Origin: a virus
Virus record (IMG/VR): IMGVR_UViG_3300005340_000003
Location: 10,599-74,598 of that record
DNA length: 64,000 bases
Direction: 5' to 3' (one strand)
Both the position numbers and the translations under genes were made by a program. Below are positions 2,265 to 62,060 of this stretch, piece by piece (within the stretch, counting starts at the first letter, position 1; the number at the start of each line of letters is the position of its first letter). The notes beneath the pieces are model-generated. The model ran no database searches. It worked only from the letters and a program-made list of their open reading frames with translations, and had not been told where the DNA came from.

Positions 2265-2893
2265 AACAGTTGATCTTTCTTTGGTTCGAGCACCACGCGC
2301 AATTTCTTCAACGCGCATGAGTGCAGATTTTGGATGTGTTGCCGGGAGTAGCCGATTCGTTCGCCGATTTCGCCGAAGGAAAATCCAGACTCATACCTGA
2401 GTATAAAAATGGCTCGCTCTCGGTCATTCAATACTCGAAATATAGCAGGTCGGAGACCGGCGAGCAACTCTTTAGTTTCGAGATTTGAGGTGTCGATTTC
2501 GCAGACTGTCGGCACCAAGGCGTTTCCGTGATCCGGATCAAGCTTTCCGGATTCACCTGGGGTAATGAAATCAATCGGGCAATGTTCCGCCTGCCGCACC
2601 ACTAATCGGCTTTTGAATTCCTTGCTGATTTGTCCTCTCAAATATTGTTTGCTAAAGGCGAAAAATGTTATCCCGTTCGATTTTCGCCGGCAATAGTTCT
2701 TCGCGGCCTGCCGCAACGCAATCCAACACATACTCGTCAACTCGCCGTCGTTCAAGCCGCCTCGGGAACAATGCCGAGCGTAAATGATCGCTTCCGACAT
2801 ATTCGCGAGAGCGAGTTTGTCGAGAGCGCCTTTCGTCCCCTTTCGAATCAGCTTGTGCTCTTCGTCGAGGGTTATTGTTTGTGAAATCCTCAT
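2261..2893 (-). CDS. Phage-encoded sigma-70-family RNA polymerase sigma factor
   Basis: Region 2-like segment (LALANMSEAIIYAR...ALRQAAKNY...ITFFAFSKQYLRGQI) and region 4 HTH (LNDRERAIFILRYESGFSFGEIGERIGYSRQHIQNLHSCALKKLR). Confidence 0.85.
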   Translation of the reverse strand: MRISQTITLDEEHKLIRKGTKGALDKLALANMSEAIIYARHCSRGGLNDGELTSMCWIALRQAAKNYCRRKSNGITFFAFSKQYLRGQISKEFKSRLVVRQAEHCPIDFITPGESGKLDPDHGNALVPTVCEIDTSNLETKELLAGLRPAIFRVLNDRERAIFILRYESGFSFGEIGERIGYSRQHIQNLHSCALKKLRVVLEPKKDQLL

Positions 2894-4971
2894 TTTGGAA
2901 ATATCCAGACTCTCGTTTTACTTTCCCCGGTTTCCGTGTAACATTTAATCACTCCCTCACGCTGGATTAGCTCAAGATACCGGTTTATCTGATCCGGCTT
3001 GAATGATTTAATCAATCCGTCGTTCATCGGGTTCGCCTGTAGCAAGCGATAAAGCTGTGTGAATGTCCCGCGCCACTCAGTCGCTTCCGGCGTCATATTG
3101 AAGAAGGCACGCAACTCTTCGATCAATATTTCCTTGAGCGGTGCCGCCTTGCTCGTCTGGTGGGTTTGGTCGAGAAGATGCGGATCGTGATAAGCAGCAA
3201 AACCATACCGCCCATCGCGAGGGATGTAGTCCGGAACTTTCCAGTTAAGCACGACACGGCCAAACACAGGAAGCTCAACAGCAAGAATTTTTTGCAGTTC
3301 ATATCGTTCGGGAAATTCGATTTTGGCGGAGGTGCATTTGAAAACGCATGTCTTCTCTGCCGAGTTATTATCGAGGGCGCACAGAATCCGGCTAGAGGTG
3401 AAGTCTGTATTTGCTGTTACCAATATACGTCCCATCCACTCAACAGTCACGGGAACGCGGAACTTTTCGTTCACTCGGAATTCCTGGTTTGCCGCCGTTT
3501 TTTTCATCATGGCCGAGAATCGGTCATGGGCATTGATCGAGTTGCCGGGAGTTTCATCATCGATTACCCACAAAGGCACATGATAATTCTCCGAGCCAAA
3601 TGAATCGCCCCGGACAATATAGTCGCTGGCGTCCACGAATCCGCCGACTAGTCGCCCAACAATGTGCCGGCCACAAAATGTCTTACCGCGATTCGGTTCT
3701 CCGAGGATAAAAACATTCTGTCCTGGGCGGGGGAGAAGTTCCACTGCGGACCGATAATAATGCTGGAGCCACGCCATGAATCTTTGAAACTGTTCCTCGG
3801 TGTCAAAAAGCTGCCGGAGAAATCGGATGATCCAAAGGTCATCGGAATTATGGTCGGCGGGCTGCACTACATTGTTTTTCCAGGTATTCAGCACTTTCCG
3901 AGTGTTGTATTCGATGAGCCCCGGCTGGCGGAAAACAAAGGGGGCCGCGCCGACTACCCGGGCATTTTCGTGAAGGTGGAAAAGTGTATCATCGATTTTC
4001 TTCTCGGGGATGCCGCAACCTTTCTTGAGGAAAATCTTCATCGCTGAGTCGTTTACGGATTGATAGATGCCGTCTATTTTTCGCCAGTAAGCTTGCCCGT
4101 CATGGAAGATGTCGAGTGTCGCCTGGGTGATTGCTTTTTCGTTGATGTCCTTTGTGAATTCTTTGCCGAGGATTTCCGACCACGAATAGAACGGTTTTTC
4201 TGCGTGGGCCGAGAAAGTAAGCATCCCGTCTGATTTGACAATCGCAGATAGTGGACTAATGGAAGCGGGTATCCAAAATGATGGGCCTTGTGTATCGAGT
4301 TCAAAAGAAGCGGGCCAAGAAAAACCCGGATACCGCTCTCTAATTGCAGGCTCGATGGTGGATAGTGGAATTGTGTTTCCCTCCGCCACTTTGAATTTGA
4401 ATTTTTTGAGAGCTTCGACATAGAATGCCTGGAGTTTGTTTTCGTCTATTGGGGCTGAATCATGAACAGGTGTCCAAACCGCGCCGTTGCAATAAAGGCG
4501 GGTGGGCTCTTCAAAAGCATTCGAATCAAGACCCGGAAGTAGATCGAGATTAAGCCATTTCTTAGCGTGCTGCAAAATCCAAATGGCCAAGTCCGTCGTT
4601 TCGACCGGAAGCGGACGAGGGAGTAACCAGAGCAAACGGCAATTACCTCCAAGGGATCGCTCAATCCAGGATGGTTTAATTGACATGGACAGAATGGCTT
4701 CCCGAATTCGATCTTCGGGAATTGTGACATCGTAGTCGGCAACGAATCCGTGAATATATTTGGCAGGGTTGTCTTTGTTAATTCGCTGATTGTTGTTGGC
4801 GGGCTCAATGGCGGTGTAGAAATTCCAGTCGGTTGATGATGTGCGATACCAGATTTGTCTTTCGGTTTTGTCATGACAGATTTTTTCTGAGGGTTTCGGA
4901 CTGTTGAATGTCCAGGGTTCGCAAGGCGTGAGCGTCTTGTCGAGGATGTTGTGGGAGTAGAAAAATTTCAC
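2890..4971 (-). CDS. Primase-helicase (AEP/RepB-like primase plus D5/DUF5906-like SF3 helicase)
   Basis: N-terminal FVADYD (DxD); C-terminal Walker A GEPNRGKT, Walker B LWVIDDE and motif C VTAN. Likely GTG start at 4971, overlapping the polymerase stop. Confidence 0.8.
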   Translation of the reverse strand: MKFFYSHNILDKTLTPCEPWTFNSPKPSEKICHDKTERQIWYRTSSTDWNFYTAIEPANNNQRINKDNPAKYIHGFVADYDVTIPEDRIREAILSMSIKPSWIERSLGGNCRLLWLLPRPLPVETTDLAIWILQHAKKWLNLDLLPGLDSNAFEEPTRLYCNGAVWTPVHDSAPIDENKLQAFYVEALKKFKFKVAEGNTIPLSTIEPAIRERYPGFSWPASFELDTQGPSFWIPASISPLSAIVKSDGMLTFSAHAEKPFYSWSEILGKEFTKDINEKAITQATLDIFHDGQAYWRKIDGIYQSVNDSAMKIFLKKGCGIPEKKIDDTLFHLHENARVVGAAPFVFRQPGLIEYNTRKVLNTWKNNVVQPADHNSDDLWIIRFLRQLFDTEEQFQRFMAWLQHYYRSAVELLPRPGQNVFILGEPNRGKTFCGRHIVGRLVGGFVDASDYIVRGDSFGSENYHVPLWVIDDETPGNSINAHDRFSAMMKKTAANQEFRVNEKFRVPVTVEWMGRILVTANTDFTSSRILCALDNNSAEKTCVFKCTSAKIEFPERYELQKILAVELPVFGRVVLNWKVPDYIPRDGRYGFAAYHDPHLLDQTHQTSKAAPLKEILIEELRAFFNMTPEATEWRGTFTQLYRLLQANPMNDGLIKSFKPDQINRYLELIQREGVIKCYTETGESKTRVWIFPK

Positions 4972-6935
4972 TTGAGGTAATGGGGAACTTCCTTTGCTTC
5001 GGCTTTCACCGGCAACCCGGCACACCATTCTGGACAAACCGACATGATGCTTTCAACATCGTGTTTGGTGATGTGTTGATCCGTTTCGAGGATCGCCTCG
5101 TCGTGGCTGGAAAACAGAACGTCAATTCCGGATGTGTCATGTAGGGTTAATAAGTGCTCTGAAAATACGTCCCGCGCCATTCCCTGATCGACGTTCTCAG
5201 TCAGCTTGCCGCCGTAGCTCTCAAATCGACGGTCTCCACGGTCGAACGTAAACACGACTCGAAGCTCCGGCTTGCCGTCCGCATCGGGCTTGAGTCTCCG
5301 CTCACACTTGACCTTTTCATAACGTAACACCCGGCCAGAAGGGAGGACAACTCTTAAATCTGAGCCGACACTGCGTTTAAACATGCCATCCAGGTATGCC
5401 CACAGCCCGGTTACTTTCGGATTCTGTTCGCGATATTCAGCGACGATCTTTTTGGCCCTCTGACCATAGCCGCTGACTTTTTTGCCGTCCACCTCGATCC
5501 ACTCCGGATCGTCTGCCGTTAAATCCATCCCGGTATAGTCCTGGGCCATGACGATGAACTTCTCCCATCCGGCCCCATATCCGAGCGCGAGAACCCGGGC
5601 TTTCACTTCCGCGTAATAGGTCGAGTCCTTATCGAGAGCAGGCTCGTTGAACCCAAGGGCGGTTCGAGCGTGAGCTTCATAAGGGCTCATGCCGGTTCGA
5701 ATCAAGTTGAGGGTCTTTTCATCCTTGGCAAGCCAGAGCAAACATCGAGGTTCGATCTGTGATAAATCCGACACAATCATTTTCTTCCCAGGTCGGGGAA
5801 TAATCAGGTGTCGGAAATCGATGGAATATTTCACCCAGGCCGGAAACGATTTGGTCTCTTTACGAATTTTCAAAGCTCCATCGATTACTTTTTCGTTCGT
5901 CTCCATCAGTCCGGATTGATCGCAGAGTATCGGTTTCTTCCGCATGTTCTGCATGTTGATTTTCGCGTCTCCGGACCACCTGCCTGTATGTGCTCCGAAA
6001 TACTTCAAACCAAATGGCATCGTCCCATCCGAGCGGAGACGTGCCTTGACCGTCAAAAACGATTTGTAGAGTTTGTTGATGCTGCGCCAGGACGATAATG
6101 CGACGATCCAGGGATTGCTCTTCCGATACATCGTTTCCCACTCCTCGTAAGCCTCCTCTCCTTCGTGTTCCTTGACGGGCGGGCTTGGAATTCCTGATCG
6201 CCGGCACTGCTCTGCTATGCACTTCGTCGATGTCGGTTTAGTGTTGAAGTCCTCCCATGAATCATCGTCGCTGCCGTCATCTTCCATCCAGGGGATTAAG
6301 CGTTCGGTCGCCAGTTTCATTTCATGACTTTGGAGGATGTAATCGTTTAAGAGCTTCGTATCGATTTGCACTCCGCGCATACCCTGCTCGATGGTCATAT
6401 TCGACAAACGCTTTTCTTTCTCTGGCCATTTATCGGAATGATCCGTCCAGAGTTTCCAACACCACCAAGGGTCTTTCCTTGCATAGTCGATCATCGTGGA
6501 TCGCTGTTCCGGAGTAAAATCTGCCGGCCAATGTTTGCCGTTGGCGTCCTCCCGAGGGTCTTTCGATAATTTGATTTTGTATAGGTGTTCGACCGCATGA
6601 GCGAGAGCGCGACGGTTGCAGAGATAAGCTGTGAGATTGGCGCTACAATGCCATTCGAGGTAATTTACTTTTGGTGCCCAACCTCGAAGGACCATTTCAT
6701 TGTAAACAGTGTTGTCGAAATATCGATTATGGCTAACGAGGATTTTTCCTTCGAGTGACGACCAAATAAAATCTTTCGGGGAGCCCGCCCAACAGGTCGA
6801 TCCATCGGAGACGCTAATAATATACGGATCGAAAAGTTCGTGCCGGCAATACTGCTCCGCTATCATCGTCTTAACGGAGTATTTTAATTTCTTGCTGAAG
6901 AAGGTTTCGAAGTCCAGGCCGATTACGTTATTCAA
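4968..6935 (-). CDS. polA: Family A DNA polymerase with 3'-5' exonuclease domain
   Basis: ExoI GLDFET, ExoII HNRYFD, GAHTGRWSG, motif A SDLSQIEPR, motif B KARVLALGYGAG, motif C SHDE. Confidence 0.95.
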   Translation of the reverse strand: MNNVIGLDFETFFSKKLKYSVKTMIAEQYCRHELFDPYIISVSDGSTCWAGSPKDFIWSSLEGKILVSHNRYFDNTVYNEMVLRGWAPKVNYLEWHCSANLTAYLCNRRALAHAVEHLYKIKLSKDPREDANGKHWPADFTPEQRSTMIDYARKDPWWCWKLWTDHSDKWPEKEKRLSNMTIEQGMRGVQIDTKLLNDYILQSHEMKLATERLIPWMEDDGSDDDSWEDFNTKPTSTKCIAEQCRRSGIPSPPVKEHEGEEAYEEWETMYRKSNPWIVALSSWRSINKLYKSFLTVKARLRSDGTMPFGLKYFGAHTGRWSGDAKINMQNMRKKPILCDQSGLMETNEKVIDGALKIRKETKSFPAWVKYSIDFRHLIIPRPGKKMIVSDLSQIEPRCLLWLAKDEKTLNLIRTGMSPYEAHARTALGFNEPALDKDSTYYAEVKARVLALGYGAGWEKFIVMAQDYTGMDLTADDPEWIEVDGKKVSGYGQRAKKIVAEYREQNPKVTGLWAYLDGMFKRSVGSDLRVVLPSGRVLRYEKVKCERRLKPDADGKPELRVVFTFDRGDRRFESYGGKLTENVDQGMARDVFSEHLLTLHDTSGIDVLFSSHDEAILETDQHITKHDVESIMSVCPEWCAGLPVKAEAKEVPHYLK

Positions 6936-7195
6936 AATGGATGCCTCTCTTTTTCTTGATGAGATTTCGAATTATTACACTTCTCGCAAAGCAACTGAAG
7001 ATTGCCGGCCCGATGCTGCGCGTGATAAAAACTCATCCGTGCGGAGGTATCCATCCGATGATGTCGATCTCCGCACGGTGTAATACAATCGAATTCTAGT
7101 TTTTCGGTGGCGGGGCATCTAGCGCATTTATCGCCGAGGACAACCCTCAGCTTTGCACGCGCACGGCGAGCCCATTCCTTGTGACGCTTCGCCAT
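6932..7195 (-). CDS. HNH endonuclease-like protein
   Basis: CARC...LEFDCITP...NLQLLCEKCNNSKS; the catalytic DH appears as DC. Confidence 0.75.
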   Translation of the reverse strand: MAKRHKEWARRARAKLRVVLGDKCARCPATEKLEFDCITPCGDRHHRMDTSARMSFYHAQHRAGNLQLLCEKCNNSKSHQEKERHPF

Positions 7196-7359: not shown

Positions 7360-7671
7360 TCATTCGGCCTCCACAAATCGGATCGCACGAACGTATCTCG
7401 CCCCAAAATGAGCACGACCGATATTCTCCGCTTGAAGGTGGGTATCAGCGATAATGTTAGCTAATAAAACATCTCCGTCGATGCTCCGGAATTCAACCAC
7501 CCATTTTTCCCGGGGTTCCGGCTTGATTCGATAACGGTCGGCGTCGTAACAGAAATCGAGATTCTCTGAAACTTCCCATTTTTCGGTGCAAAGACCTTTC
7601 ATTTCCACCGGTTTGCCTTCGGCGAAGGCAGTGATGATCGGCAGCATTTGTTTGGCTTTCTCAGGACTCAT
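7360..7671 (-). CDS. YRIKPEPR family paralog 2
   Basis: IITAFAEGKPVEM...DFCYDADRYRIKPEPREKWV. Confidence 0.65.
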   Translation of the reverse strand: MSPEKAKQMLPIITAFAEGKPVEMKGLCTEKWEVSENLDFCYDADRYRIKPEPREKWVVEFRSIDGDVLLANIIADTHLQAENIGRAHFGARYVRAIRFVEAE

Positions 7672-8021
7672 AGGTTTATTAGTTGATCGGTTAATTCTCG
7701 GACGGATTGAAAGAATTTGATGTAGTCTTTCCGCGTTACTACGTTTACCTGTAGTAAAGCACAAGCGGCGACATCGCGCAACTCACGAAATTTAGTCGCT
7801 GTTTCGTTGCCGATGTTTGACGATTTCTTCGGGCCGGAGATCGATGTCTCGTTCAGCCGTTTATTCGGGCCAAGATCGCTACATGCCTTCCGAACCGTTG
7901 CGGAGACAACCGAATCGAGGGCCGTCAAAAACTCCGGTCCGGATTGGTTGCCGAGGCCCTTCACGAGTTTCTTCACTGACGAGGTTACAATGAATTCGGG
8001 TTTGTTCATGGTTTCAGCCAT
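7668..8021 (-). CDS. Putative histone-fold protein (bacterial/phage histone-like) with C-terminal helical extension
   Basis: EFIVTSSVKKLVKGLGNQSGPEFLTALDSVVSATVRKAC...NKRLNETSI aligns by eye with the a1-L1-a2-L2 pattern of Bdellovibrio Bd0055/HBb (VLVVTSKVKKLIKEKG...KTV, recalled from memory). Confidence 0.6.
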   Translation of the reverse strand: MAETMNKPEFIVTSSVKKLVKGLGNQSGPEFLTALDSVVSATVRKACSDLGPNKRLNETSISGPKKSSNIGNETATKFRELRDVAACALLQVNVVTRKDYIKFFQSVRELTDQLINL

Positions 8022-8093
8022 ATCTCTTTAATTAGTTTTTTGATGAGTCGAATCGCTTTCGCGTGCTTCCTGTAAAAGCCGATGGATGGTTTT

Positions 8094-8699
8094 TTACTCA
8101 TCGGTTTTTTCAGTTGAAGATTTGAATTCAGTGCCGCAGGCACAAGTCGGCAATCCGGTCTCGATCCACTTTTGCGTCGTCCGGATCACGTAGCCGCACT
8201 CCGGGCATTCGCACTTCAGCAGCCGAGTCGATTGTTTCTTCGTCGGTGCCATCCCCTTCAATTGACTGTGCGGATAAATGCCGAGCGACTTTTGCCAGCC
8301 GAGCATGTCCGACATCAACTTTTCGCCGGCATTGGTGGAAGTAAGTTTTCCCTCCAGGCCAACCGCACGAGCGCACTTGCCGAAAACTTTGTTGTGGCCT
8401 TCCTTGTGGCCGACAACGGCGTGAACGACTTCATGCACGAGTGTCGCAATGACTCCCATGTCCGTAGTCATTTCGTCGAGTGCGGGCGAGATAAAAATCT
8501 GCGCGGCTTGCTTGTCGGCTGATGCTGTTTTGCTCCAGCATTCGCCGAGCACTCGTTTCTTGTTCGCGAGACCACCACGGACGGGCCACCCACATGCTAC
8601 CCGCACTTGCGGCACTTTATATCCGGCCTCCACGAACAGCGGCGTCATTTCGCCGACTGCCGCCTGGAGCCACTCTTCCCGAGTTTTGTATTGTTTCAT
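8094..8699 (-). CDS. SprT-like zinc metalloprotease with C-terminal Zn ribbon
   Basis: LVHEVVHAVVGHKEGHNKVF (HExxH...H) and CPECGY...CACG. Confidence 0.8.
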   Translation of the reverse strand: MKQYKTREEWLQAAVGEMTPLFVEAGYKVPQVRVACGWPVRGGLANKKRVLGECWSKTASADKQAAQIFISPALDEMTTDMGVIATLVHEVVHAVVGHKEGHNKVFGKCARAVGLEGKLTSTNAGEKLMSDMLGWQKSLGIYPHSQLKGMAPTKKQSTRLLKCECPECGYVIRTTQKWIETGLPTCACGTEFKSSTEKTDE

Positions 8700-9278: not shown

Positions 9279-9332
9279 GTGGGTCGTTTATTCGACTTCA
9301 CTACTTATCGCACCCTATCCAACGAATGTCAA
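9279..9332 (-). promoter_or_regulatory. Sigma70-like promoter plus AAUAAA-loop leader hairpin
   Basis: TTGACA-N17-GATAAG, then GTGAAGTCG-AATAAA-CGACCCAC. Confidence 0.6.
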
Positions 9333-11129
9333 ATGTTTTTTTGCCCGTGTAACTGCCACGTAGTAAATGTTTTGCTCCTCGTCGCCTTTATTCTTTTTGA
9401 AGGTCGCCGTCAGAATAAACACCCGGTTCCATTCGAGGCCTTTCGCCTTGTGAACGGAACTGAGGACAACAGAAGGCTTTGCGTTGCTGTCGGTATCCTG
9501 GAAAAGCGAGTAAATTTTCGATTCAATCTCGGCTACATTCCGAGCCCCCTCGGACACCGCCATCAGCGTATCCACTTGGTCGTTCACCTGGGCGATTTTC
9601 GCTTCCGCGTTTTTCGTCGCGCCAAAGCGAGCCCTCTGCTTGGTTCCCCAGGCTTCGAGCTTGCGGATGAAATCCGGCACGCTCTTCGCCCTGAGTTTCC
9701 GAACCATTCCGACTAGCTGCGCTCCAATGTCGCGTCCCTCGATCCGAGCCGGCGTTCCACGGCGGAGGAGGTTCAGGCATGCGCTCATGAGCGGAGCGTT
9801 GAGGCGGCTGAGGATCGCATCGCCGATCCGAGCATGTTCGAGAACGCTCACCACTTCATCCACCAAGCCCTCGGGAGCACTCGGGGCGGCTTTGTAATCG
9901 GTCACAATTTCAGCCGCAATTGCCACCACAGCCTTCGGGCAGCGGTAAGTGGTAGTCAGACCGAAGACCCGGGCTGAAAGACGCTCCTGCATCATCCTCA
10001 TGCCATTTTGAGCCGCTCCACGAAACGCATAGATTGCCTGCCGGTCGTCGCCCACGATGCAAATCCGACCGCCCGGTTCACAGCTTCGAATCGCCATTTC
10101 GAGTTGCGGGAGATTCATATCCTGGCTCTCATCCACCACCACGAGGCCGAAACGAGGGAAAACCCAATTCTTCACCACCGGCAACCAGACCATATCGTTG
10201 AAGCTGATTCGGCCCTCGTTGTCGCGTTCCTTGGCGGCTTCCAGGGCGTCGAAGGCCACTTTCGCGAGCTTCGCCACGGTCCAGCCGCCATCCGCTTCGG
10301 CCTCTGCTGCTGAGAAAATCCCCCGGTCGTTCGCGATGTCGATAAGTTGTTCGACGGTAGGGTTGAGGAGAAGGTTTTTCGCGAAGCCGACGATCCGTTC
10401 CACGCAACCAAGGACTTCCTCCGGGATATTCGGGCTAACCGCTTCGATCCGAGCCGCTTCCACCGAGGCGTCCGGCTTCACACCGGGCCAAACTTGCGTG
10501 ATGTAGAAAAAACCGAGGCTATGCAACGTCTTGATCTCCACGCGCTTGTCGGAGATTTTCTCTTCGGCTTCGATCTGGTTTTTCTTGTTGAAGACCGCGT
10601 AAAGGAGCTTCGTGATGTGGCTCGGAACGAAGGTGAAAGCCTGCTTAATGGTCGTCGTTTTGCCAGTGCCGGCCCGGGCTTGGACGACCGCATTGCCAGT
10701 GCCCGACGCGAACCATTGAAAAATCTCTTCCTGCTCTGCGGACCAAAAAACGGTGGGAATAGAAGGGATCGAACCTTCAACACCCGCGCTCAAACTATCA
10801 GTGCCAGTCGAGGCACCCGAGACGTTTGACGACTGCGCGGGCACGGAGCCATCCACTCCCGACAGTGACGGAACTTGGGCTTGTTCTTGAGGGTTGGTGG
10901 GATTGGTCGTCTCGTCAGACGTAGCGCCATTACCCCACAAGCAAATTTCCCAAGTTCCGTCACGGTCGTTTTTACTGCAAGAAACACCCTCATTTTTCAA
11001 GGTGTTCTTACTCGATCTCCAGGCATTCCAAAAAGCCGGTGTCGGCGCTGCGGTTCGGAGCGTCCGGATTCCCACTCGGGTATTCACGGTTTTCGGCTCG
11101 CTCCAGTTCAGTTGAATTGTTTCAATCAC
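9315..11129 (-). CDS. UvrD/Rep-like superfamily 1 helicase with N-terminal extension
   Basis: ARAGTGKTT, VVVDESQD, GDDRQAIYAFRGA, TYRCP, SVHKAKGLEW, YVAVTRAK. Probable leaderless GTG start at 11129. Confidence 0.92.
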   Translation of the reverse strand: MIETIQLNWSEPKTVNTRVGIRTLRTAAPTPAFWNAWRSSKNTLKNEGVSCSKNDRDGTWEICLWGNGATSDETTNPTNPQEQAQVPSLSGVDGSVPAQSSNVSGASTGTDSLSAGVEGSIPSIPTVFWSAEQEEIFQWFASGTGNAVVQARAGTGKTTTIKQAFTFVPSHITKLLYAVFNKKNQIEAEEKISDKRVEIKTLHSLGFFYITQVWPGVKPDASVEAARIEAVSPNIPEEVLGCVERIVGFAKNLLLNPTVEQLIDIANDRGIFSAAEAEADGGWTVAKLAKVAFDALEAAKERDNEGRISFNDMVWLPVVKNWVFPRFGLVVVDESQDMNLPQLEMAIRSCEPGGRICIVGDDRQAIYAFRGAAQNGMRMMQERLSARVFGLTTTYRCPKAVVAIAAEIVTDYKAAPSAPEGLVDEVVSVLEHARIGDAILSRLNAPLMSACLNLLRRGTPARIEGRDIGAQLVGMVRKLRAKSVPDFIRKLEAWGTKQRARFGATKNAEAKIAQVNDQVDTLMAVSEGARNVAEIESKIYSLFQDTDSNAKPSVVLSSVHKAKGLEWNRVFILTATFKKNKGDEEQNIYYVAVTRAKKHLTFVG

Positions 11130-11135
11130 GGGAGC

Positions 11136-11164
11136 ACTATCGCAGAGGATCGCCGGCACGTCAA
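11136..11164 (-). promoter_or_regulatory. Sigma70-like promoter for a leaderless helicase mRNA
   Basis: TTGACG-N17-GATAGT (with TGn) followed by 6 nt and GTG. Confidence 0.55.
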
Positions 11165-13462: not shown

Positions 13463-14731
13463 TTATTCTTTCGTTTTCTCCGCCTGCAAAAATACTGCTG
13501 GCGAGCCTCGTTCTACTACATTCGCGGCCTCCAGACAACTCTTGAATTCTTGGATCGCATGTTTTTTACTGCCGCGAGGTGCCTTCGCTCCGATTGAGTC
13601 CTCAATCGCGCCAATGCTCACGTCGAGCGCCTGGGCGTATTCTTCCTCCGTCAAATACCGCAATGCCTCGCGCTTGAATCCGGCCATATCGGTAACTGCG
13701 CGGCTTCCGTCCCGTTGTTGCAGGCGGTATCCTTCAGGAAGCGGAGCACCACGAAGAACCCTCTCCGCCGTAACCTTCCGGAACGCTTCCGACCAGACTT
13801 TCATTACCTGGGCGAGTTGCATCCCGAGACCGGTATTCGCCGGGTCTTGAACCATACTCGGAGTCACTGAAGCCGGGATTTTAAGTGGGGCGAATTTGTT
13901 TCCGACAGTGCAAGCGAATTTGGTAACAGCGGGACAGATGCCCGTATGTTTGCAAAAAAGACAGTTCGGAATAGTCGGATTTGCAGATGAAAAATCTGCT
14001 TTAGCCCGGGCCATTCTCGCCCGTTCAACGACAACCGAAACCCGAAGGAGTAGCGACAGAATTTCGGAACGGTGGAAAACGTGATCGTCAAGAAAACCGA
14101 TTGCTGGCTGCTTGATCCAGAAGCGAACCGATTCGAGCTTCGGAAATTTTTTGAATAGACCCAAAACATAAGCGATTGCCTGGAGGTTGTTTTTGACTTT
14201 CTCGACCGACCACACACCAAATTTCCAATCGAAGGCTTCACAGTAAGTGCCAGCATGAGAGAAAAACGCCCGGTCGAAATATCCTGCGGTCGTTGATTGA
14301 ATCTTCAAAAGAATCGAGCCGAGACCAACTTTGATTTCGTCTTCGAATTCCAGGTCGTCAATCGGGAGGTAAGTCTCGGTCAATTCGAGAATCTCCGGAT
14401 ACGATCTGTGATCCGGAAGTTCAGAAATCATCGCATGCGCCCGCGCATCGACCGCCAACTGTTTTCGCTCTTCGTAAAAATCCAGGCACTCAGCCGCCAT
14501 CAAAGCGTCATCATCGCTGAGGGACTCATCGTCCATTCTGTCCTCAGTAACCTTGTGCATTTTGGTGCCGGCAATGGCCCGAATATGGCTCTCGTCTCTT
14601 CCTTCATAGCACGGACAGGCTTCGAGACTTTGTAAGGTGGAGGGAGAGTAAGGATGGTGAACGCGATCCTCTTGCTTCGGTCGTTGTTCATTTATCAGAG
14701 TTTGTTCTTTCAACGCTTGTTCGAGATTCAT
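13463..14731 (-). CDS. PD-(D/E)xK Cas4-like exonuclease (DUF2800-like)
   Basis: HHPYSPS...ACP, GTKMH, GYFD, DWKFG, NLQAIAY, CLFC-x5-CP. Confidence 0.85.
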   Translation of the reverse strand: MNLEQALKEQTLINEQRPKQEDRVHHPYSPSTLQSLEACPCYEGRDESHIRAIAGTKMHKVTEDRMDDESLSDDDALMAAECLDFYEERKQLAVDARAHAMISELPDHRSYPEILELTETYLPIDDLEFEDEIKVGLGSILLKIQSTTAGYFDRAFFSHAGTYCEAFDWKFGVWSVEKVKNNLQAIAYVLGLFKKFPKLESVRFWIKQPAIGFLDDHVFHRSEILSLLLRVSVVVERARMARAKADFSSANPTIPNCLFCKHTGICPAVTKFACTVGNKFAPLKIPASVTPSMVQDPANTGLGMQLAQVMKVWSEAFRKVTAERVLRGAPLPEGYRLQQRDGSRAVTDMAGFKREALRYLTEEEYAQALDVSIGAIEDSIGAKAPRGSKKHAIQEFKSCLEAANVVERGSPAVFLQAEKTKE

Positions 14732-15327
14732 TGGCCTTTTCCTCCCTCGTCGCCGACGATGGTTTTCTTGAACATCACCCGGGCTGCGGTGTGCCAGATG
14801 ACGATCCCTTCGGGCTGCATGAATCCAGGAGACGCCACGCTACCTTTCTCCGCTAGTTCCTGAAGTGTCCAGGCAACATTACCGGTTGTGAAAAGTCCTC
14901 GATACAGTGTCGGAACTACAAGGCAACACTCGGGCGGCTTTTCCTTCCCATCCGGACCCCATCGGTCCACATTGAAAAGTGAAAAGTGTTTTTCCGTCAA
15001 ACCGTAGCGACGTTGAATTCCTCCGCCCCACCATTCGCCGAAGTGCCGTCCCTGTCCGAGTTTCACCAATTCTTCCGCGTTGGACTGCACCCATTTCGCG
15101 AATCCGTAATTATCGTTGTCCGGAGTGATCCAACGGGTGCGACTGCCTGCGGCAATCCAGGGACCGTTCGAACCGACGCGAACCAAAGGAATGTCATTTG
15201 GATTTGCCACCTCGTCGAGAACTTCAGTGATGAAAATCTGTGCGTTAGTGCCGTCGATCTTTTCGGTGATAACACACTCGCGGCTGAGACGCGCCATTTT
15301 CGGAAACGTTTCAAAGGTGCTATTCAT
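14728..15327 (-). CDS. RNA ligase (Rnl2-like nucleotidyltransferase domain)
   Basis: Motif I TEKIDGTNA, GSRTRW, GEWWG, FSLFNV, motif IV PEGIV, FKK. Confidence 0.88.
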   Translation of the reverse strand: MNSTFETFPKMARLSRECVITEKIDGTNAQIFITEVLDEVANPNDIPLVRVGSNGPWIAAGSRTRWITPDNDNYGFAKWVQSNAEELVKLGQGRHFGEWWGGGIQRRYGLTEKHFSLFNVDRWGPDGKEKPPECCLVVPTLYRGLFTTGNVAWTLQELAEKGSVASPGFMQPEGIVIWHTAARVMFKKTIVGDEGGKGQ

Positions 15328-21190: not shown

Positions 21191-21424
21191 TCACTTCCGT
21201 TGTCTCCGTTCCAGGAGTGCCGTAATTGCGAGAGCTACTCCGGCGAACGCCAGGATGCCTCCAAGGAAAACCACCACCAGCCCGAGGCTAATCCAAAGCG
21301 GAGACAGCACCCACCACCAGGACCAGTCGATTACGTGACAAAGTTTCAGGGTGATAAAAACGATGGTGAGAAGTCCTCCGAAACTGATTCCTCCGCTTGA
21401 CGCTTGTGTTTTTGTGTCGCTCAT
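21191..21424 (-). CDS. Small membrane protein ([11 protein letters not shown] family)
   Basis: [19 protein letters not shown] plus transmembrane segments; a widespread phage family. Confidence 0.75.
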
Positions 21425-21993
21425 AGTTTTGCTGTTACGATTCCGGTTTGTGATTGATACTTTCCTTTTTTGTCCGCGTAACTGACATCGCAGCCGCCAG
21501 CGTCACCTCGGAAGAAAAGCACCTGGGCGATGCCTTCGTTAGCGTAGATTTTCGCCGGCAATGGAGTTGTGTTTGAAATCTCCAGGGTGACGAAGCCTTC
21601 CCACTCGGGCTCGAAGGGTGTCACGTTGACGATGATCCCGCACCGGGCGTATGTCGATTTGCCGAGGCATACCGTAATCAGGTCGCGAGGAATTCGAAAA
21701 TACTCCACACTCACGCCGAGGGCGAAACTGTTCGGCGGGATGATTACGTATTCTTCCGTCTGCACGGTAACGAATGCCTCGTCCTTGAAAGCCTTCGGAT
21801 CGACAAGGGTGCCGTGGACGTTGGTGAAAATCTTAAACTCATTCCCGATGCGGATGTCATATCCGTAGCTGCTCAAACCGTAGGATATTTTCCCGTCGCG
21901 CACTTGATGATCCACGAAGGGGTCAATCATCGGCTTAAAGTTGCCGGAGGTAAAACATCGGGCGGTTATTTGATGGTCGGCGAGGACGCTCAT
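21421..21993 (-). CDS. dcd: dCTP deaminase
   Basis: [47 protein letters not shown]; start MSVLAD at 21993. Confidence 0.97.
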
Positions 21994-22184
21994 ACGCTCA
22001 TGTCTTCGTGTTTTTCTTGTGTGCGATTGAATCGACGACCGGGATGGTGACTCGTTCGCCCTTTTCGTTGATGAATTCTCCGGCCTCCTGGTTGCCTTCA
22101 CCGGGCCAGAACGGATTCTGGCCGAGTGAATCTTCCGGGCGACCTTCGATTTTGTTTCCTGGTTTTTTCTTTCTGCTCATATTT

Positions 22185-59397: not shown

Positions 59398-60603
59398 ATG
59401 GCCTTACAAGCTACAAACCTCGTCATCCAGGCATCGCAACTGCCCGCAACATTCGCCGGCAAGCCGAACGACCTTTTCCGAGCAATGATCGAACGCATGC
59501 GGATCGTTTCGCCGTCCGGGACCGGTTTTTTCGTGATTGGTGACAATGAACCACCGAACAATCAAGGCCCCTGGTTGAAGGGCGGAACTCAATGGTGGGT
59601 TTGGGATGAAGACTTGAAAAGATACGTCCCACTCGATGTCAGCGAGTCAGAGACAAAATGGTATCAAATCGGAGCGACGACCCCGACAACTTCCGAGCCT
59701 CCGCTTTGGCTCAGAACGACCGCGAACGCGACGGAAGCTAAACCGAGTTTCGGAACACCCGTTGCTTGGTATCTTTTCGATGGAACGACCTGGATACAGT
59801 TACCAGTATTGATTGAAGACCGGTCAATTACCCAGGCGAAACTTCATTGGAATACCCCATTTTTCGGGACGGCATCCGGGACCGATAATTACGTTATTTC
59901 GTTCAGCCCAAACACCGGATTTACTTTGGGCGACGGAGCAGCGACTTCGATTTTGTTTCTGGTGAAATTCCCGAACACAAACACGGGACCGGTGACTCTC
60001 AATGTCAATTCCTCGGGACCGATCCCGGTGAAAAAATTCACCAGCGAAGCAATCGTCGCGGGAGAGATTGTCGCCGGATCGATTCACGCGGTTTCGTTCG
60101 ACGGAACGAATTATCAAATTCTAAGCTCGATCCCCAATCGCGAGTCGGGAGTTTTGTTGAATGTCGTCACAAAAATTTCGAATGTAGCTTTTAGCGGAGC
60201 ACTGATGTTTCCTTACGACAACACGCCTCCGGAAAACACTGAGGGAAACCCATATAATGATTTGGAGACCGTCTATTCAGCGGAGAGGGCCAACTCAAAG
60301 TTGATTGTGGACGTGAAATTACAAGCGTCCACGAATAACGGAACCTATTTTATTACGGCTCTATTCAAAGACTCAGACACGAACGCTTTGGCAGCTAGTT
60401 CAACCTCCATTGTTGCTATCGAGGACGAGCAAGCCACTCTAAGAGCGATTTTCGATGTGGGGGATACGTCTCCGCACACTTACAAAGTTCGATTCGGGCC
60501 GTCAGCTTCGGCTGCGACGGTTTTCATAAATCAAAACTCCACTGCACCGACCTTCGGTGGAACGTTGATGTCGTCACTTACGATTATGGAGGTGTCAGCA
60601 TGA
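59398..60603 (+). CDS. Tail fibre / receptor-binding protein 1
   Basis: The first ~245 aa are paralogous to the next gene; VKFPNTNTGPVTLNVN fibre motif. Confidence 0.75.
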   Translation: MALQATNLVIQASQLPATFAGKPNDLFRAMIERMRIVSPSGTGFFVIGDNEPPNNQGPWLKGGTQWWVWDEDLKRYVPLDVSESETKWYQIGATTPTTSEPPLWLRTTANATEAKPSFGTPVAWYLFDGTTWIQLPVLIEDRSITQAKLHWNTPFFGTASGTDNYVISFSPNTGFTLGDGAATSILFLVKFPNTNTGPVTLNVNSSGPIPVKKFTSEAIVAGEIVAGSIHAVSFDGTNYQILSSIPNRESGVLLNVVTKISNVAFSGALMFPYDNTPPENTEGNPYNDLETVYSAERANSKLIVDVKLQASTNNGTYFITALFKDSDTNALAASSTSIVAIEDEQATLRAIFDVGDTSPHTYKVRFGPSASAATVFINQNSTAPTFGGTLMSSLTIMEVSA

Positions 60604-62060
60604 GTCTCCAAAACACAAACTTGATTATCCAGGCGTCACAGCTTCCGGCGACGTTCAAGGGTAAGCCGAACGATTTGTTCCGCGCAATGGTGGAACGAAT
60701 GCGGATTGTTTCAAGTTCCGGAACCGGATTTTTCGTAATCTCCGACACAGAGCCGCCGAACAATCAAGGCCCCTGGCTGAAGGGCGGGACTCAATGGTGG
60801 GTCTTCGATCCGGACTTGAAACGATATGTCCCACTCGACATCAGCGAGAGCGAAACGAGGTGGTATCAGGTTGGCAACAGCATCCCGACCACGACCAGCC
60901 CTCCGTTGTGGTTGAAAACAACCGCTACAGTTCCGCCTAGTTCTACCGTGGCGGAACCTACGCCGGGAACACCGATTGCATGGTATCTTTTCGACGGTAG
61001 CAACTGGATTCAACTTCCGGTGCTCATCGATGATCGATCCATTACGGCAGCGAAGCTGAATCCAACGGCGAATTTTTACGGCACCGCGTCCGGAACCAAT
61101 AACTATACCCTGGTGTTCACTCCGGACACCCCGTTCAATTACGGCAACGGATCAACCGAAGCTTTTGTCGGTTACGTTAAGTTCACCAACGCGAATACCG
61201 GAGTCTCAACACTCAGCCTCAACGGTGGGGGCGGCGTTACGATCAAAAAGGCCGTCAACATGGACTTGGTTGCCGGCGAAATCAAAGCGGGCTCCGTTCA
61301 TCTTCTCGTTTATGACGGACAGTTTTTCCAAATCCTTTCCGAGTTGCCTTCGACTGAAATCGATCCCGGCCCGGTTGGTGGAATTGGAAACTCTGAGGGA
61401 CTCCTAATTACAAACGATTTGGTTACTCCAGATGACATCCTGGTAATCACTGCCAACAGTGTTTTGCTTGAGGACTCAATGGGTGATGACCTTCGAATCA
61501 ATACGGTCAATCTCGATTTGAATCTCACGCTTTCCGGCCTGGGCGGTCTCGATACGGGATCATCGACGGCGAATACATGGTATTACATTTGGTTGGTGTC
61601 GGATGGGACAACGATCAACGCGGTGTTTTCTCTCAGCGATTCGAACCCGACTCGACCAGCCGCTTATCGATTTATCGGACTCTTCGGAGCGGTTTTCTCC
61701 GACTCCAGCAACGACCTTACGAAGATGTGGCAGACGGCGAGGAAAACCTATTTGATCGTGTCACCTATCGTCAAAGGTCCAGACGGCTTCCAGGATTTTT
61801 CAACTGTTGTTCCGCCGATTGCGATAACTGTTTTCGGATCGACAACTCCAATAGGAGGACCGAATGCCGTTGCAGATTTGGTGATGTCAGGGGACGCGAA
61901 CCTTGTGGGTGGGTTCACTTTTCATTTGCAAGATGTCGCCGGCAACACCACGGCGGTCGGAGGGTTTTTCGAGGTGCCGATGATTACTCCTCAGAATGTT
62001 TACGCAACCTCGACCGGGACACTCGGGGTGAGTTTCGATATTTCCGGATTTACGATATGA
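60600..62060 (+). CDS. Tail fibre / receptor-binding protein 2
   Basis: Shared N-terminus; different C-terminus with GGLDTGSSTANTWYYIWLV. Confidence 0.75.
   Translation: MSLQNTNLIIQASQLPATFKGKPNDLFRAMVERMRIVSSSGTGFFVISDTEPPNNQGPWLKGGTQWWVFDPDLKRYVPLDISESETRWYQVGNSIPTTTSPPLWLKTTATVPPSSTVAEPTPGTPIAWYLFDGSNWIQLPVLIDDRSITAAKLNPTANFYGTASGTNNYTLVFTPDTPFNYGNGSTEAFVGYVKFTNANTGVSTLSLNGGGGVTIKKAVNMDLVAGEIKAGSVHLLVYDGQFFQILSELPSTEIDPGPVGGIGNSEGLLITNDLVTPDDILVITANSVLLEDSMGDDLRINTVNLDLNLTLSGLGGLDTGSSTANTWYYIWLVSDGTTINAVFSLSDSNPTRPAAYRFIGLFGAVFSDSSNDLTKMWQTARKTYLIVSPIVKGPDGFQDFSTVVPPIAITVFGSTTPIGGPNAVADLVMSGDANLVGGFTFHLQDVAGNTTAVGGFFEVPMITPQNVYATSTGTLGVSFDISGFTI

What the first reader, a model, noticed from the sequence alone, without database searches (positions are those of the whole stretch)
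7668..8021. Phage-encoded histone-fold protein in the replication module
Seen: IVTSSVKKLVKGLG-NQSGPEFLTALDSVVSATVRKAC-SDLGPNKRL, then a linker and two predicted helices. Known (sequence recalled): the Bdellovibrio histone Bd0055/HBb begins LVVTSKVKKLIKEKG...S.E....L...I......G...A...RKTV, and phage histones with C-terminal helical domains have been noted in metagenomes but are little characterised. The RxTxxxxD clamp is degenerate here (KRLNETS). Inference: it may coat phage DNA, shield it from nucleases or poison host chromatin.
Basis: partly seen in the sequence, partly recalled or inferred. Interest (0 to 1): 0.8.

Follow-up and report, generated by a model that had tools for sequence, protein, structure and literature searches.

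The report
Phage histone-fold protein, new family
A complete, uncultured 74.6-kb phage carries, inside its DNA-replication operon, a 117-residue protein with a short "alpha3-truncated" histone fold joined to a two-helix pairing domain; phage histones of this design were predicted by computer in 2024-25, but this sequence family is in no annotated database and none has been tested at the bench.

Summary
ORF 7668-8021 (-) encodes the quoted 117-aa protein. The window is a complete IMG/VR phage genome with direct terminal repeats. The gene lies between a SprT-like protease and HNH/family-A DNA polymerase genes.

Pfam and PHROGs give nothing. A profile of 19-40 metagenomic relatives matches the solved face-to-face alpha3 histone HTkC (9f2c) at E = 1e-6 to 6e-6 over 57 of its 59 residues.

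AlphaFold2 gives alpha1, a 22-residue alpha2, a 4-residue alpha3, a linker and a helical hairpin. A four-copy complex model passed its controls (0.51 vs 0.10); its confident contacts have histone-handshake geometry between two copies. Two lysines (K17, K54) are conserved at the usual DNA-contact positions. The RxTxxxxD clamp is absent across the family.

The architecture matches the "phage histones" of Schwab 2024 and the VTTHFPs of Liu 2025, so the kind is known. This family is rare (about 40 clusters among 5.8 billion), metagenome-only, and differs in invariant D36/C47 and a two-helix C-terminal domain. DNA binding and function remain inferred. I rate it a new member of a known kind, of moderate interest.

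The parts
7668..8021 (-). Histone-fold protein gene (117 aa plus TGA stop), protein P0001
   Evidence: ORF list and translation. 35-40 homologues at 24-67% identity with conserved columns.
8024..8029 (-). Shine-Dalgarno-like AAAGAG, 2 nt upstream of the ATG
   Evidence: Read from the sequence. No sigma-70-like promoter or terminator lies between the flanking genes.
7839..7997 (-). N-terminal alpha3-truncated histone fold, residues 9-61 (alpha1 13-22, L1 23-28, alpha2 29-50, L2 51-57, alpha3 58-61)
   Evidence: Profile match to HTkC 9f2c, E = 9.9e-7 and 5.5e-6. AF2 secondary structure. Foldseek top ranks are HLp and HBb. VIA Z 5.2, rmsd 2.4 over 52 of 56 residues of HLp. Handshake contacts.
7809..7838 (-). 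Variable, low-confidence linker, residues 62-71
   Evidence: pLDDT below 50. Length-variable, unconserved columns.
7671..7808 (-). C-terminal helical hairpin, residues 72-117 (helices 72-90 and 97-116, conserved L90-x-x-N93-x-x-T96 turn)
   Evidence: AF2, conservation, confident inter-copy contacts at 78-115. Only generic hairpin matches, e.g. HK853 DHp and CsoR/CstR, Z up to 6.9.
7360..7671 (-). Downstream 103-aa ORF whose ATG overlaps the histone gene's TGA (ATGA); function unknown; context
   Evidence: Sequence. Same arrangement and 48% identity in the related phage L003. Weak phrog_21668 match.
8094..8699 (-). Upstream SprT-like zinc metalloprotease gene with a C-terminal zinc ribbon; context
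   Evidence: Pfam SprT-like E = 1.9e-6, phrog_6361 E = 2.9e-49. 80% identical in L003 at the same position.
4968..7195 (-). HNH endonuclease (6932-7195) and family-A DNA polymerase (4968-6935) downstream on the same strand; context
   Evidence: PHROG matches. The order histone, HNH, polymerase recurs in the distant relative L005.

Best explanation
The gene encodes a phage alpha3-truncated histone. Residues 9-61 form a minimal histone fold: alpha1, a 22-residue alpha2 and a 4-residue alpha3. This fold pairs with a second copy in the classic antiparallel 'handshake'. Residues 72-117 form a helical hairpin that packs against the partner's hairpin and locks, or possibly further oligomerises, the dimer. 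I infer that the dimer binds double-stranded DNA without sequence preference. The contacts would come from the conserved alpha1 lysines (K17/K18, placed next to each other at the dimer dyad) and the L2 lysine/arginine (K54/R55). The protein is made together with the replication enzymes, in one operon and translationally coupled to the next gene. Its likely role is as an architectural protein that bends or bridges replicating phage DNA, a phage counterpart of a nucleoid-associated protein. Shown here: the gene, its conservation, homology to a solved histone, and its genomic setting. Predicted: the fold and the dimer. Inferred: DNA binding, bridging and the biological role.
For: Homology: a profile of 19 relatives hits HTkC (9f2c, face-to-face alpha3 histone) at E = 9.9e-7, 32 bits, over chain residues 1-57 of 59. 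A profile of 40 relatives gives E = 5.5e-6. HBb/Bd0055 and HLp follow at E 0.2-0.8.

Fold: the AF2 model with 35 sequences has pLDDT 66 and helices 13-22, 29-50, 58-61, 72-90 and 97-116. This matches the published definition of alpha3 histones: alpha3 of 3-4 residues and a shortened alpha2 (PMC11390915). Foldseek's top-ranked solved chains are the bacterial histones HLp and HBb (prob 0.89 and 0.57, TM 0.55-0.64, 28% identity), although E is about 1. VIA gives Z 5.2, rmsd 2.4 A over 52 of HLp's 56 residues.

Dimer: the four-copy complex scored 0.51 against a best control of 0.10 (3 controls). That mark was reached by 20 of 30 proteins solved as pairs of one chain and 1 of 23 solved as single chains. 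The runs agree in at least 49% of contacts and the partner's pLDDT is at least 61. The confident contacts are alpha2-alpha2 pairs with index sums of 74-78, meaning an antiparallel crossing at the alpha2 midpoint; alpha1 on the partner's alpha2 C-terminal half; and L1 on the partner's alpha2 end.

Conservation: K17 is K in 37 and R in 3 of 40; K54 is conserved in 37 of 40. These are the structural positions Schwab et al. name as DNA-contact lysines (K10 and K49).

Context: a complete phage and a replication operon. The order histone, HNH, PolA is kept in a relative about 35-40% identical. JGI labelled one member 'histone H3/H4'.
Against: No Pfam, PHROG or single-sequence match identifies a histone. 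All structural evidence is prediction at moderate confidence: pLDDT 66, and about 50-56 around alpha3. The fold-search statistics are within the noise range for small helical models. The complex pass may reflect likeness to solved histone dimers; it used my own alignment and four copies, unlike the calibration. The histone domain is only mildly basic (median net +2, range -5 to +6) and family pI reaches down to 5.4. The RD clamp that stabilises L2 in DNA-binding alpha3 histones is missing. DNA binding was not and cannot be tested here. The synteny evidence rests on only two independent contexts.
Confidence: 0.55

Rival explanations
1. It is a histone-fold protein used as a protein-protein or replisome adaptor rather than a general DNA organiser. 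It could be an accessory subunit that tethers the phage family-A polymerase or helicase to duplex DNA, as the histone-fold pair Dpb3-Dpb4 does for eukaryotic Pol epsilon. Alternatively it could be a non-DNA-binding histone-fold scaffold like the DUF1931 proteins.
For: The gene sits immediately upstream of HNH and PolA in both this phage and a relative about 35-40% identical. The charge is modest and some family members are acidic. The RD clamp is lost. Schwab et al. note that some prokaryotic histone-fold categories lack DNA-binding residues and may have other roles. The gene is translationally coupled to an unknown 103-aa protein.
Against: The two lysines at canonical DNA-contact positions are conserved in 37 of 40 sequences. 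No interaction with the polymerase was tested. Synteny in phage replication modules is common without physical association. Only two independent contexts could be retrieved.
Confidence: 0.2
2. It is a DNA-binding histone aimed at defence or takeover. It would coat phage DNA to shield it from restriction or CRISPR nucleases, or bind and silence the host nucleoid.
For: It is expressed from the early/replication strand block, not the structural block. Histone-fold dimers bind DNA non-specifically, as in the HBb and HLp structures with DNA (9ezz, 9qt1/2, listed).
Against: Nothing in the locus is a recognised defence or anti-defence gene, although PADLOC was not searched. A coating role needs high abundance and strong basicity, and net charge is only +2. 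No promoter of its own was found. The host is unknown.
Confidence: 0.12
3. It is not a histone fold at all. It would be a small four-helix phage protein whose N-terminal half resembles alpha3 histones by chance or by convergence of amphipathic helices.
For: There is no curated-family hit. Foldseek E is about 1 and VIA Z is 5.2, within noise for helical models. Monomer pLDDT is only 66.
Against: The profile E-value of 1e-6 covers essentially the full HTkC chain, including the shared S-P-E-F and V-K motifs, and is stable across three alignments. The only other sub-threshold natural hits are also histones (HBb, HLp). The independent complex model gives handshake geometry.
Confidence: 0.07

Closest known systems
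'Phage histones' of Schwab et al. 2024 (Nat Commun 15:7950, PMC11390915; exemplars A0A2E7QIQ9, A0A516LIY4, A0A2D7X1W6)
   Same: Both have an N-terminal alpha3-truncated histone fold, a flexible linker and a C-terminal alpha-helical oligomerisation domain. Both lack the RxTxxxxD clamp, keep two conserved lysines about 38-39 residues apart (their K10 and K49; K17 and K54 here), come from tailed phages or metagenomes, and are uncharacterised experimentally.
   Different: None of the 29 clusters examined carries a UniProt/UniRef source, so these proteins were outside that survey. Their highly conserved R30 and G17 have no conserved counterpart here; this family instead has invariant D36 and C47. 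The C-terminal domain here is a two-helix hairpin, not the single tetramerising helix of their figure legend. Foldseek aligns A0A516LIY4 at only 16% identity, E 1.3. Their tetramer was not reproduced here.
[quoted passage not shown] 2025 (hLife 3:284, PMC13681535), mined from IMG/VR 4
   Same: Both are Caudoviricetes proteins with an alpha3 histone fold linked by a loop to a C-terminal helical part predicted to mediate oligomerisation, with conserved basic residues in alpha1 and L2.
   Different: VTTHFPs are described with one long C-terminal helix and conserved K5, K9, R29 and K48. Here there are two C-terminal helices and no conserved Arg at the R29-equivalent spacing. I could not check whether this record is in their set, because no supplement is held.
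HTkC, the face-to-face (FtF) alpha3 histone of Thermococcus kodakarensis (PDB 9F2C)
   Same: It is the closest solved relative by sequence: E = 1e-6 over the whole fold, with shared V-K (alpha1), S-P-E-F (start of alpha2) and K-x-L (L2) motifs.
   Different: HTkC is 59 aa with no C-terminal domain, has the RxTxxxxD clamp, and forms a torus-shaped tetramer through its histone folds. It is archaeal and chromosomal.
Bacterial dimer and tetramer histones HBb/Bd0055 (8CMP, 8FVX, 9EZZ) and HLp (9QT0-2)
   Same: They share the alpha3-truncated fold and are the top Foldseek ranks (28% identity over 56 columns). HLp gives Z 5.2, rmsd 2.4 A over 52 residues.
   Different: Sequence similarity is not significant (E 0.2-0.8). 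They are single-domain proteins of about 60-65 aa with an RD clamp (HLp R55-D62), and they are essential chromosomal proteins of bacteria.

Membership tests
alpha3-truncated histones (Schwab 2024) | Histone fold with a shortened alpha2 (about 22-23 residues) and an alpha3 of only 3-4 residues | tested here: met
   AF2 model: alpha2 is 29-50 (22 residues) and alpha3 is 58-61 (4 residues). Confidence is moderate (mean pLDDT 66, about 50-56 around alpha3).
alpha3-truncated histones (Schwab 2024) | Detectable sequence relationship to established alpha3 histones | tested here: met
   hmmsearch of family profiles against PDB: HTkC 9f2c at E = 9.9e-7 (A2) and 5.5e-6 (A5), covering residues 1-57 of 59.
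alpha3-truncated histones (Schwab 2024) | Antiparallel 'handshake' homodimer | tested here: met
   Prediction only. The complex scored 0.51 vs a best control of 0.10 (a mark reached by 20 of 30 solved homo-pairs and 1 of 23 single chains), with run agreement of at least 49% and partner pLDDT of at least 61. The alpha2-alpha2 contact sums are 74-78. The pass may reflect likeness to solved histone dimers.
alpha3-truncated histones (Schwab 2024) | Binds DNA | not testable with these tools
   The only support is conservation of K17 (37 K and 3 R of 40) and K54 (37 of 40) at the canonical alpha1 and L2 positions.
Phage histones (Schwab 2024) / VTTHFP (Liu 2025) | N-terminal alpha3 fold plus a C-terminal alpha-helical domain, phage-encoded | tested here: met
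   The C-terminal part is a two-helix hairpin rather than one long helix.
Phage histones (Schwab 2024) / VTTHFP (Liu 2025) | Lacks the RxTxxxxD motif | tested here: met
   The Arg position is Arg in 0 of 40 and the Asp position is Asp in 1 of 40. The Thr position is T in 20 and R in 20.
Phage histones (Schwab 2024) / VTTHFP (Liu 2025) | Conserved K10, G17, R30 and K49 (VTTHFP: K5, K9, R29, K48) | tested here: inconclusive
   The two lysines fit. G24 is present in P0001 but not conserved. By spacing, the R30 position falls at S37, next to invariant D36, and no Arg is conserved there. The mapping is by spacing only, because their HMM is not at hand.
Phage histones (Schwab 2024) / VTTHFP (Liu 2025) | Tetramer through the C-terminal domains | tested here: inconclusive
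   In the four-copy model the confident interface listed was between two copies only.
Phage histones (Schwab 2024) / VTTHFP (Liu 2025) | Scores above threshold with the authors' HMM profile | not testable with these tools
   The profiles are in the 4TU repository and are not available here. Foldseek aligns A0A516LIY4 at 16% identity, E 1.3.
Face-to-face histones (HTkC type) | RxTxxxxD clamp and a single-domain protein that forms a tetramer through its histone folds | tested here: not met
   The clamp is absent and there is an extra C-terminal domain. Formation of an FtF tetramer was not specifically tested.
Bacterial dimer histones (HBb/Bd0055 type) | Significant sequence similarity; single domain of about 60-65 aa with an RD clamp | tested here: not met
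   E is 0.2-0.5. The protein is 117 aa with two domains, and the clamp is absent.
Pfam CBFD_NFYB_HMF (PF00808) / Histone (PF00125) / DUF1931 (PF09123) | Score above the Pfam gathering threshold | tested here: not met
   No match even at E up to 1 for P0001, or at E up to 0.1 for nine other full-length and short relatives.

The most novel reading that the evidence does not exclude
The histone-fold dimer is a dedicated accessory of the phage replisome. It would be a viral analogue of the Dpb3-Dpb4 histone-fold pair of eukaryotic DNA polymerase epsilon, using its C-terminal hairpin to dock on the family-A polymerase (or the coupled 103-aa protein) and its histone fold to grip duplex DNA behind the fork. 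That would be the first histone-fold replisome subunit outside eukaryotes.
Probability: 0.08. Interest if true: 0.8.

Novelty: new member of a known kind. Interest (0 to 1): 0.45.

Why it matters
Histones in bacteria and their viruses were recognised only recently. HBb and HLp are the only bacterial ones with solved DNA complexes. In the literature I could search, no phage alpha3 histone has been purified or tested.

This locus offers a clean test case. The phage genome is complete with terminal repeats. The gene is short and soluble-looking, with about 40 natural variants for covariation or mutagenesis. It sits in a defined operon next to the polymerase. The family lies outside UniProt, Pfam and PHROGs, so it extends the catalogued diversity of viral histones.

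Showing whether it bridges, bends or wraps DNA, or instead serves the replisome, would say what a minimal histone fold does for a virus of bacteria. It would also show how often the fold has been combined with new oligomerisation modules.

Tried and rejected
- **Family scans:** Pfam and PHROGs scans of P0001 and relatives found no histone family.
- **Single-sequence PDB search:** the best hit was only E 0.21.
- **GenBank phages:** tblastn of P0001 and P0017 against 50,697 phage records found no match at E up to 1.
- **First AF2 monomer (6 sequences):** pLDDT 52, not usable.
- **VIA-align, wide and second-look:** both lists are filled by the generic C-terminal hairpin, Z up to 6.9, within noise for helical models. 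HLp appears only at rank 44.
- **Tetramer:** the four-copy model listed confident contacts for the scored copy with one other copy only. An oligomer above a dimer was neither supported nor excluded.
- **The look-up of encoding contigs:** The long contigs carrying P0013, P0021, P0036 and P0039 could not be inspected.
- **The search for related loci:**
  - A3 and A2 were too degenerate for the metagenome and genome collections.
  - A1 on genome contigs found nothing.
  - A4 on genome contigs gave one false positive, L008, a pattern inside a 356-aa cellular ORF of a Gammaproteobacteria MAG.
  - The metagenome scan gave only short contigs.
  - P0013 and P0021 on viral contigs found nothing.
- **Catalogue membership:** the hLife paper has no supplement held. 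Schwab's supplement files are truncated, so the absence of the BFVD neighbours there is uninformative.
- **ESM Atlas:** only unnamed Uroviricota clusters at 0.90-0.91, and histone-annotated clusters at 0.86-0.87. These are leads, not evidence.
- **Promoter and terminator scan around the gene:** nothing above shuffled expectation.
- **Host:** not identifiable. PolA is at most 32% identical to any deposited phage, and ten large late ORFs have no Pfam hit.

Full report
**1. What is there**

An AAAGAG Shine-Dalgarno-like element lies 2 nt upstream of the start. The TGA stop overlaps the ATG of the next ORF in the sequence ATGA. That ORF is 103 aa, at 7360-7671.

No sigma-70-like promoter or intrinsic terminator separates the gene from its neighbours. 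It reads as one cistron of a long minus-strand operon.

The window belongs to a 74,598-bp IMG/VR virus record with direct terminal repeats, rated 100% complete.

Neighbouring genes on the same strand:

| Coordinates | Gene |
|---|---|
| 2890-5037 | DUF5906 primase/helicase-like protein |
| 4968-6935 | family-A DNA polymerase |
| 6932-7195 | small HNH endonuclease |
| 8094-8699 | SprT-like zinc metalloprotease |
| 9315-11159 | helicase |
| 13463-14731 | exonuclease |
| 14728-15327 | RNA-ligase-like protein |
| 21421-22101 | dCTP deaminase |

Both 'phage-encoded' and 'replication module' are therefore correct.

**2. Is it a real, conserved protein?**

Yes. The 5.8-billion-protein collection holds 6 close relatives (57-67% identity). 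A profile search of 1.84 billion cluster representatives found 19 hits at E up to 1e-3, 14 of them of similar length covering both halves. A second profile search found 30 clusters.

All are from metagenomes (JGI, ENA, Logan, one NCBI contig). None of the 29 clusters I looked up has a UniProt/UniRef source or an informative name, except one that JGI calls 'histone H3/H4'.

In a 40-sequence alignment D36 and C47 are invariant. K17, F31, L35, K54 and L56 are at least 90% conserved. The C-terminal half keeps a conserved L90-x-x-N93-x-x-T96 turn between two helices.

A few relatives are histone-domain-only forms of 65-68 aa (P0024, P0028). One carries the domain at its C-terminus after an Ala/Thr-rich tail (P0027).

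**3. Is it a histone fold?**

Curated libraries say nothing. There is no Pfam or PHROG match at permissive thresholds, and the single sequence reaches only E 0.21 against solved structures.

The family profile gives a different answer:

| Profile | Best PDB hit | E-value |
|---|---|---|
| 6 sequences (A1) | HTkC, 9f2c | 0.01 |
| 19 sequences (A2) | HTkC, 9f2c | 9.9e-7 (32 bits, residues 1-57 of 59) |
| 40 sequences (A5) | HTkC, 9f2c | 5.5e-6 |

9F2C is the crystal structure of HTkC, the face-to-face alpha3 histone of Thermococcus kodakarensis (PMC11390915). The only other natural proteins near threshold are also histones: HBb/Bd0055 (8cmp, 8fvx; E 0.2-0.5) and HLp (9qt0; E 0.15-0.8).

With 35 sequences, AlphaFold2 gives a moderate model (pLDDT 66) with these elements:
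- alpha1, residues 13-22
- alpha2, residues 29-50
- a four-residue alpha3, residues 58-61
- a disordered linker
- helices 72-90 and 97-116

A shortened alpha2 and an alpha3 of 3-4 residues is how Schwab et al. define the alpha3 family.

Foldseek ranks HLp and HBb first among 350,542 solved chains (prob 0.89 and 0.57, TM 0.55-0.64, 28% identity), but E is about 1, as expected for a domain of about 50 residues. VIA-align gives Z 5.2 and rmsd 2.4 A over 52 of HLp's 56 residues. That is full-domain coverage, but the Z lies within the noise band for helical models.

**4. Does it form the handshake dimer?**

A four-copy complex model scored 0.51 against a best control of 0.10 (3 controls). That mark was reached by 20 of 30 proteins solved as pairs of one chain and by 1 of 23 solved as single chains. 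The runs agree in at least 49% of contacts and the partner's pLDDT is at least 61.

Three caveats apply. My own alignment was used. Four copies differ from the calibration. Histone dimers are solved, so the pass may reflect that likeness.

The lowest-error contacts fit a histone handshake:
- **alpha2 to alpha2:** pairs 35:39, 35:42, 35:43 and 31:46 have index sums of 74-78. This means an antiparallel crossing at residue 38-39, the midpoint of alpha2.
- **alpha1 to partner's alpha2:** residues 16-20 lie on the partner's 39-47.
- **L1 to partner's alpha2 end:** residues 23-25 lie against 46-48.
- **N-termini:** the two alpha1 N-termini meet at 12:12, which would place the K17/K18 pairs side by side at the dyad.
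- **C-terminal hairpins:** they also touch each other, at 78-115.

Confident contacts were listed between two copies only.

**5. What is missing**

Aligned to HTkC's R-K-T-L-Y-A-R-D, this protein reads N-K-R-L-N-E-T-S. Across 40 relatives the Arg position is never Arg and the Asp position is Asp once.

The histone domain is only mildly basic (median +2). Whole-protein pI ranges from 5.4 to 9.4, and is 9.4 here.

**6. Comparison with what is known**

Schwab et al. 2024 defined 'phage histones'. These have an N-terminal alpha3 fold, a C-terminal helical tetramerisation domain, no RxTxxxD motif, and conserved K10, G17, R30 and K49. They were proposed to bridge DNA.

Liu et al. 2025 mined IMG/VR 4 and named VTTHFPs. 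These have an alpha3 fold, a loop and one long C-terminal helix, with conserved K5, K9, R29 and K48.

This protein shares that architecture, the missing clamp and the two lysines. It differs in four ways:
- It has invariant D36 and C47.
- It has no conserved Arg at the R29/R30 spacing.
- Its C-terminal domain is a two-helix hairpin.
- Foldseek aligns it to the catalogued phage histone A0A516LIY4 at only 16% identity (E 1.3).

I could not run the authors' HMMs, so whether it is a distant branch of their family or a parallel family stays open. Either way the kind is known, and the literature I could search contains no experimental work on any phage alpha3 histone.

**7. Context and function**

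A related 74.5-kb phage (L003) keeps the trio of SprT-like, histone and 103-aa ORF, at 80%, 67% and 48% identity. A relative about 35-40% identical (L005) keeps the order histone, HNH, (Mom-like DNA-modification gene), PolA.

The gene is co-oriented and co-transcribed with replication enzymes, not with the plus-strand late block. This favours a role on intracellular, replicating DNA over a virion-packaged condensing protein.

My best reading (0.55) is a handshake dimer, stabilised or further assembled by the hairpin, that binds duplex DNA non-specifically and bends or bridges phage DNA during replication. The rivals are:
- a replisome or protein adaptor (0.2)
- a shielding or host-takeover histone (0.12)
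- not a histone fold at all (0.07)

**8. Verdict**

The nearest relative is corrected to HTkC. Function remains inferred. This is a new, very rare, metagenome-only member of an already described kind, of moderate interest, mainly as a well-defined candidate for the first biochemical study of a phage histone.

Noticed in passing
window 7360-7671 (-): A 103-aa ORF starts at an ATG overlapping the histone gene's TGA (ATGA), which suggests translational coupling. The same arrangement occurs in L003 (8351-8659, 48% identity). It has only a weak match to phrog_21668, of unknown function. It could be a partner of the histone-fold protein.
   Followed up: partly
P0001 residues 27 and 47 (window about 7941-7943 and 7881-7883); alignment A5: C47 is invariant in 40 of 40 relatives. 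A second Cys sits in loop L1 (reference position 27) in 24 of 40, though it is Ser in this phage. The dimer model puts L1 (residues 23 and 25) against the partner's C47, so most family members might form an inter-subunit disulfide or metal site.
   Followed up: partly
window 8094-8699 (-): A SprT-like zinc metalloprotease with a C-terminal zinc ribbon lies directly upstream. It is much better conserved between the two related phages (80%) than the histone (67%). SprT/Spartan-type enzymes are DNA-dependent proteases of DNA-bound proteins, so a functional link to a DNA-binding histone is conceivable but untested.
   Followed up: no
L005 767-1429 (+): A distant relative's contig carries a Mom-like DNA-modification gene (phrog_1384, E = 4e-49) between the HNH and DNA polymerase genes, just downstream of its histone gene. 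No Mom-like gene was looked for in this window.
   Followed up: no
window 32587-62060 (+): Ten large plus-strand (presumably structural or late) ORFs of 400-700 aa have no Pfam match, apart from a weak Mtd second-domain hit in 60600-62060. The phage's DNA polymerase is at most 32% identical to any GenBank phage. This is a very remote phage lineage with an unknown host.
   Followed up: partly
P0027 (120 aa) and P0024/P0028 (65-68 aa), metagenomic relatives: The histone domain of this family also occurs alone (65-68 aa), and once at the C-terminus of a protein with an Ala/Thr/Ser-rich low-complexity N-terminal tail of about 50 residues. The C-terminal hairpin is therefore a separable module.
   Followed up: no
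L008 4028-4132 (Gammaproteobacteria MAG JADGEK010000040.1): The only 'hit' among 185,579 species genomes is a false positive. The peptide DFIVVSAVK lies inside an unrelated 356-aa cellular ORF.
   Followed up: yes
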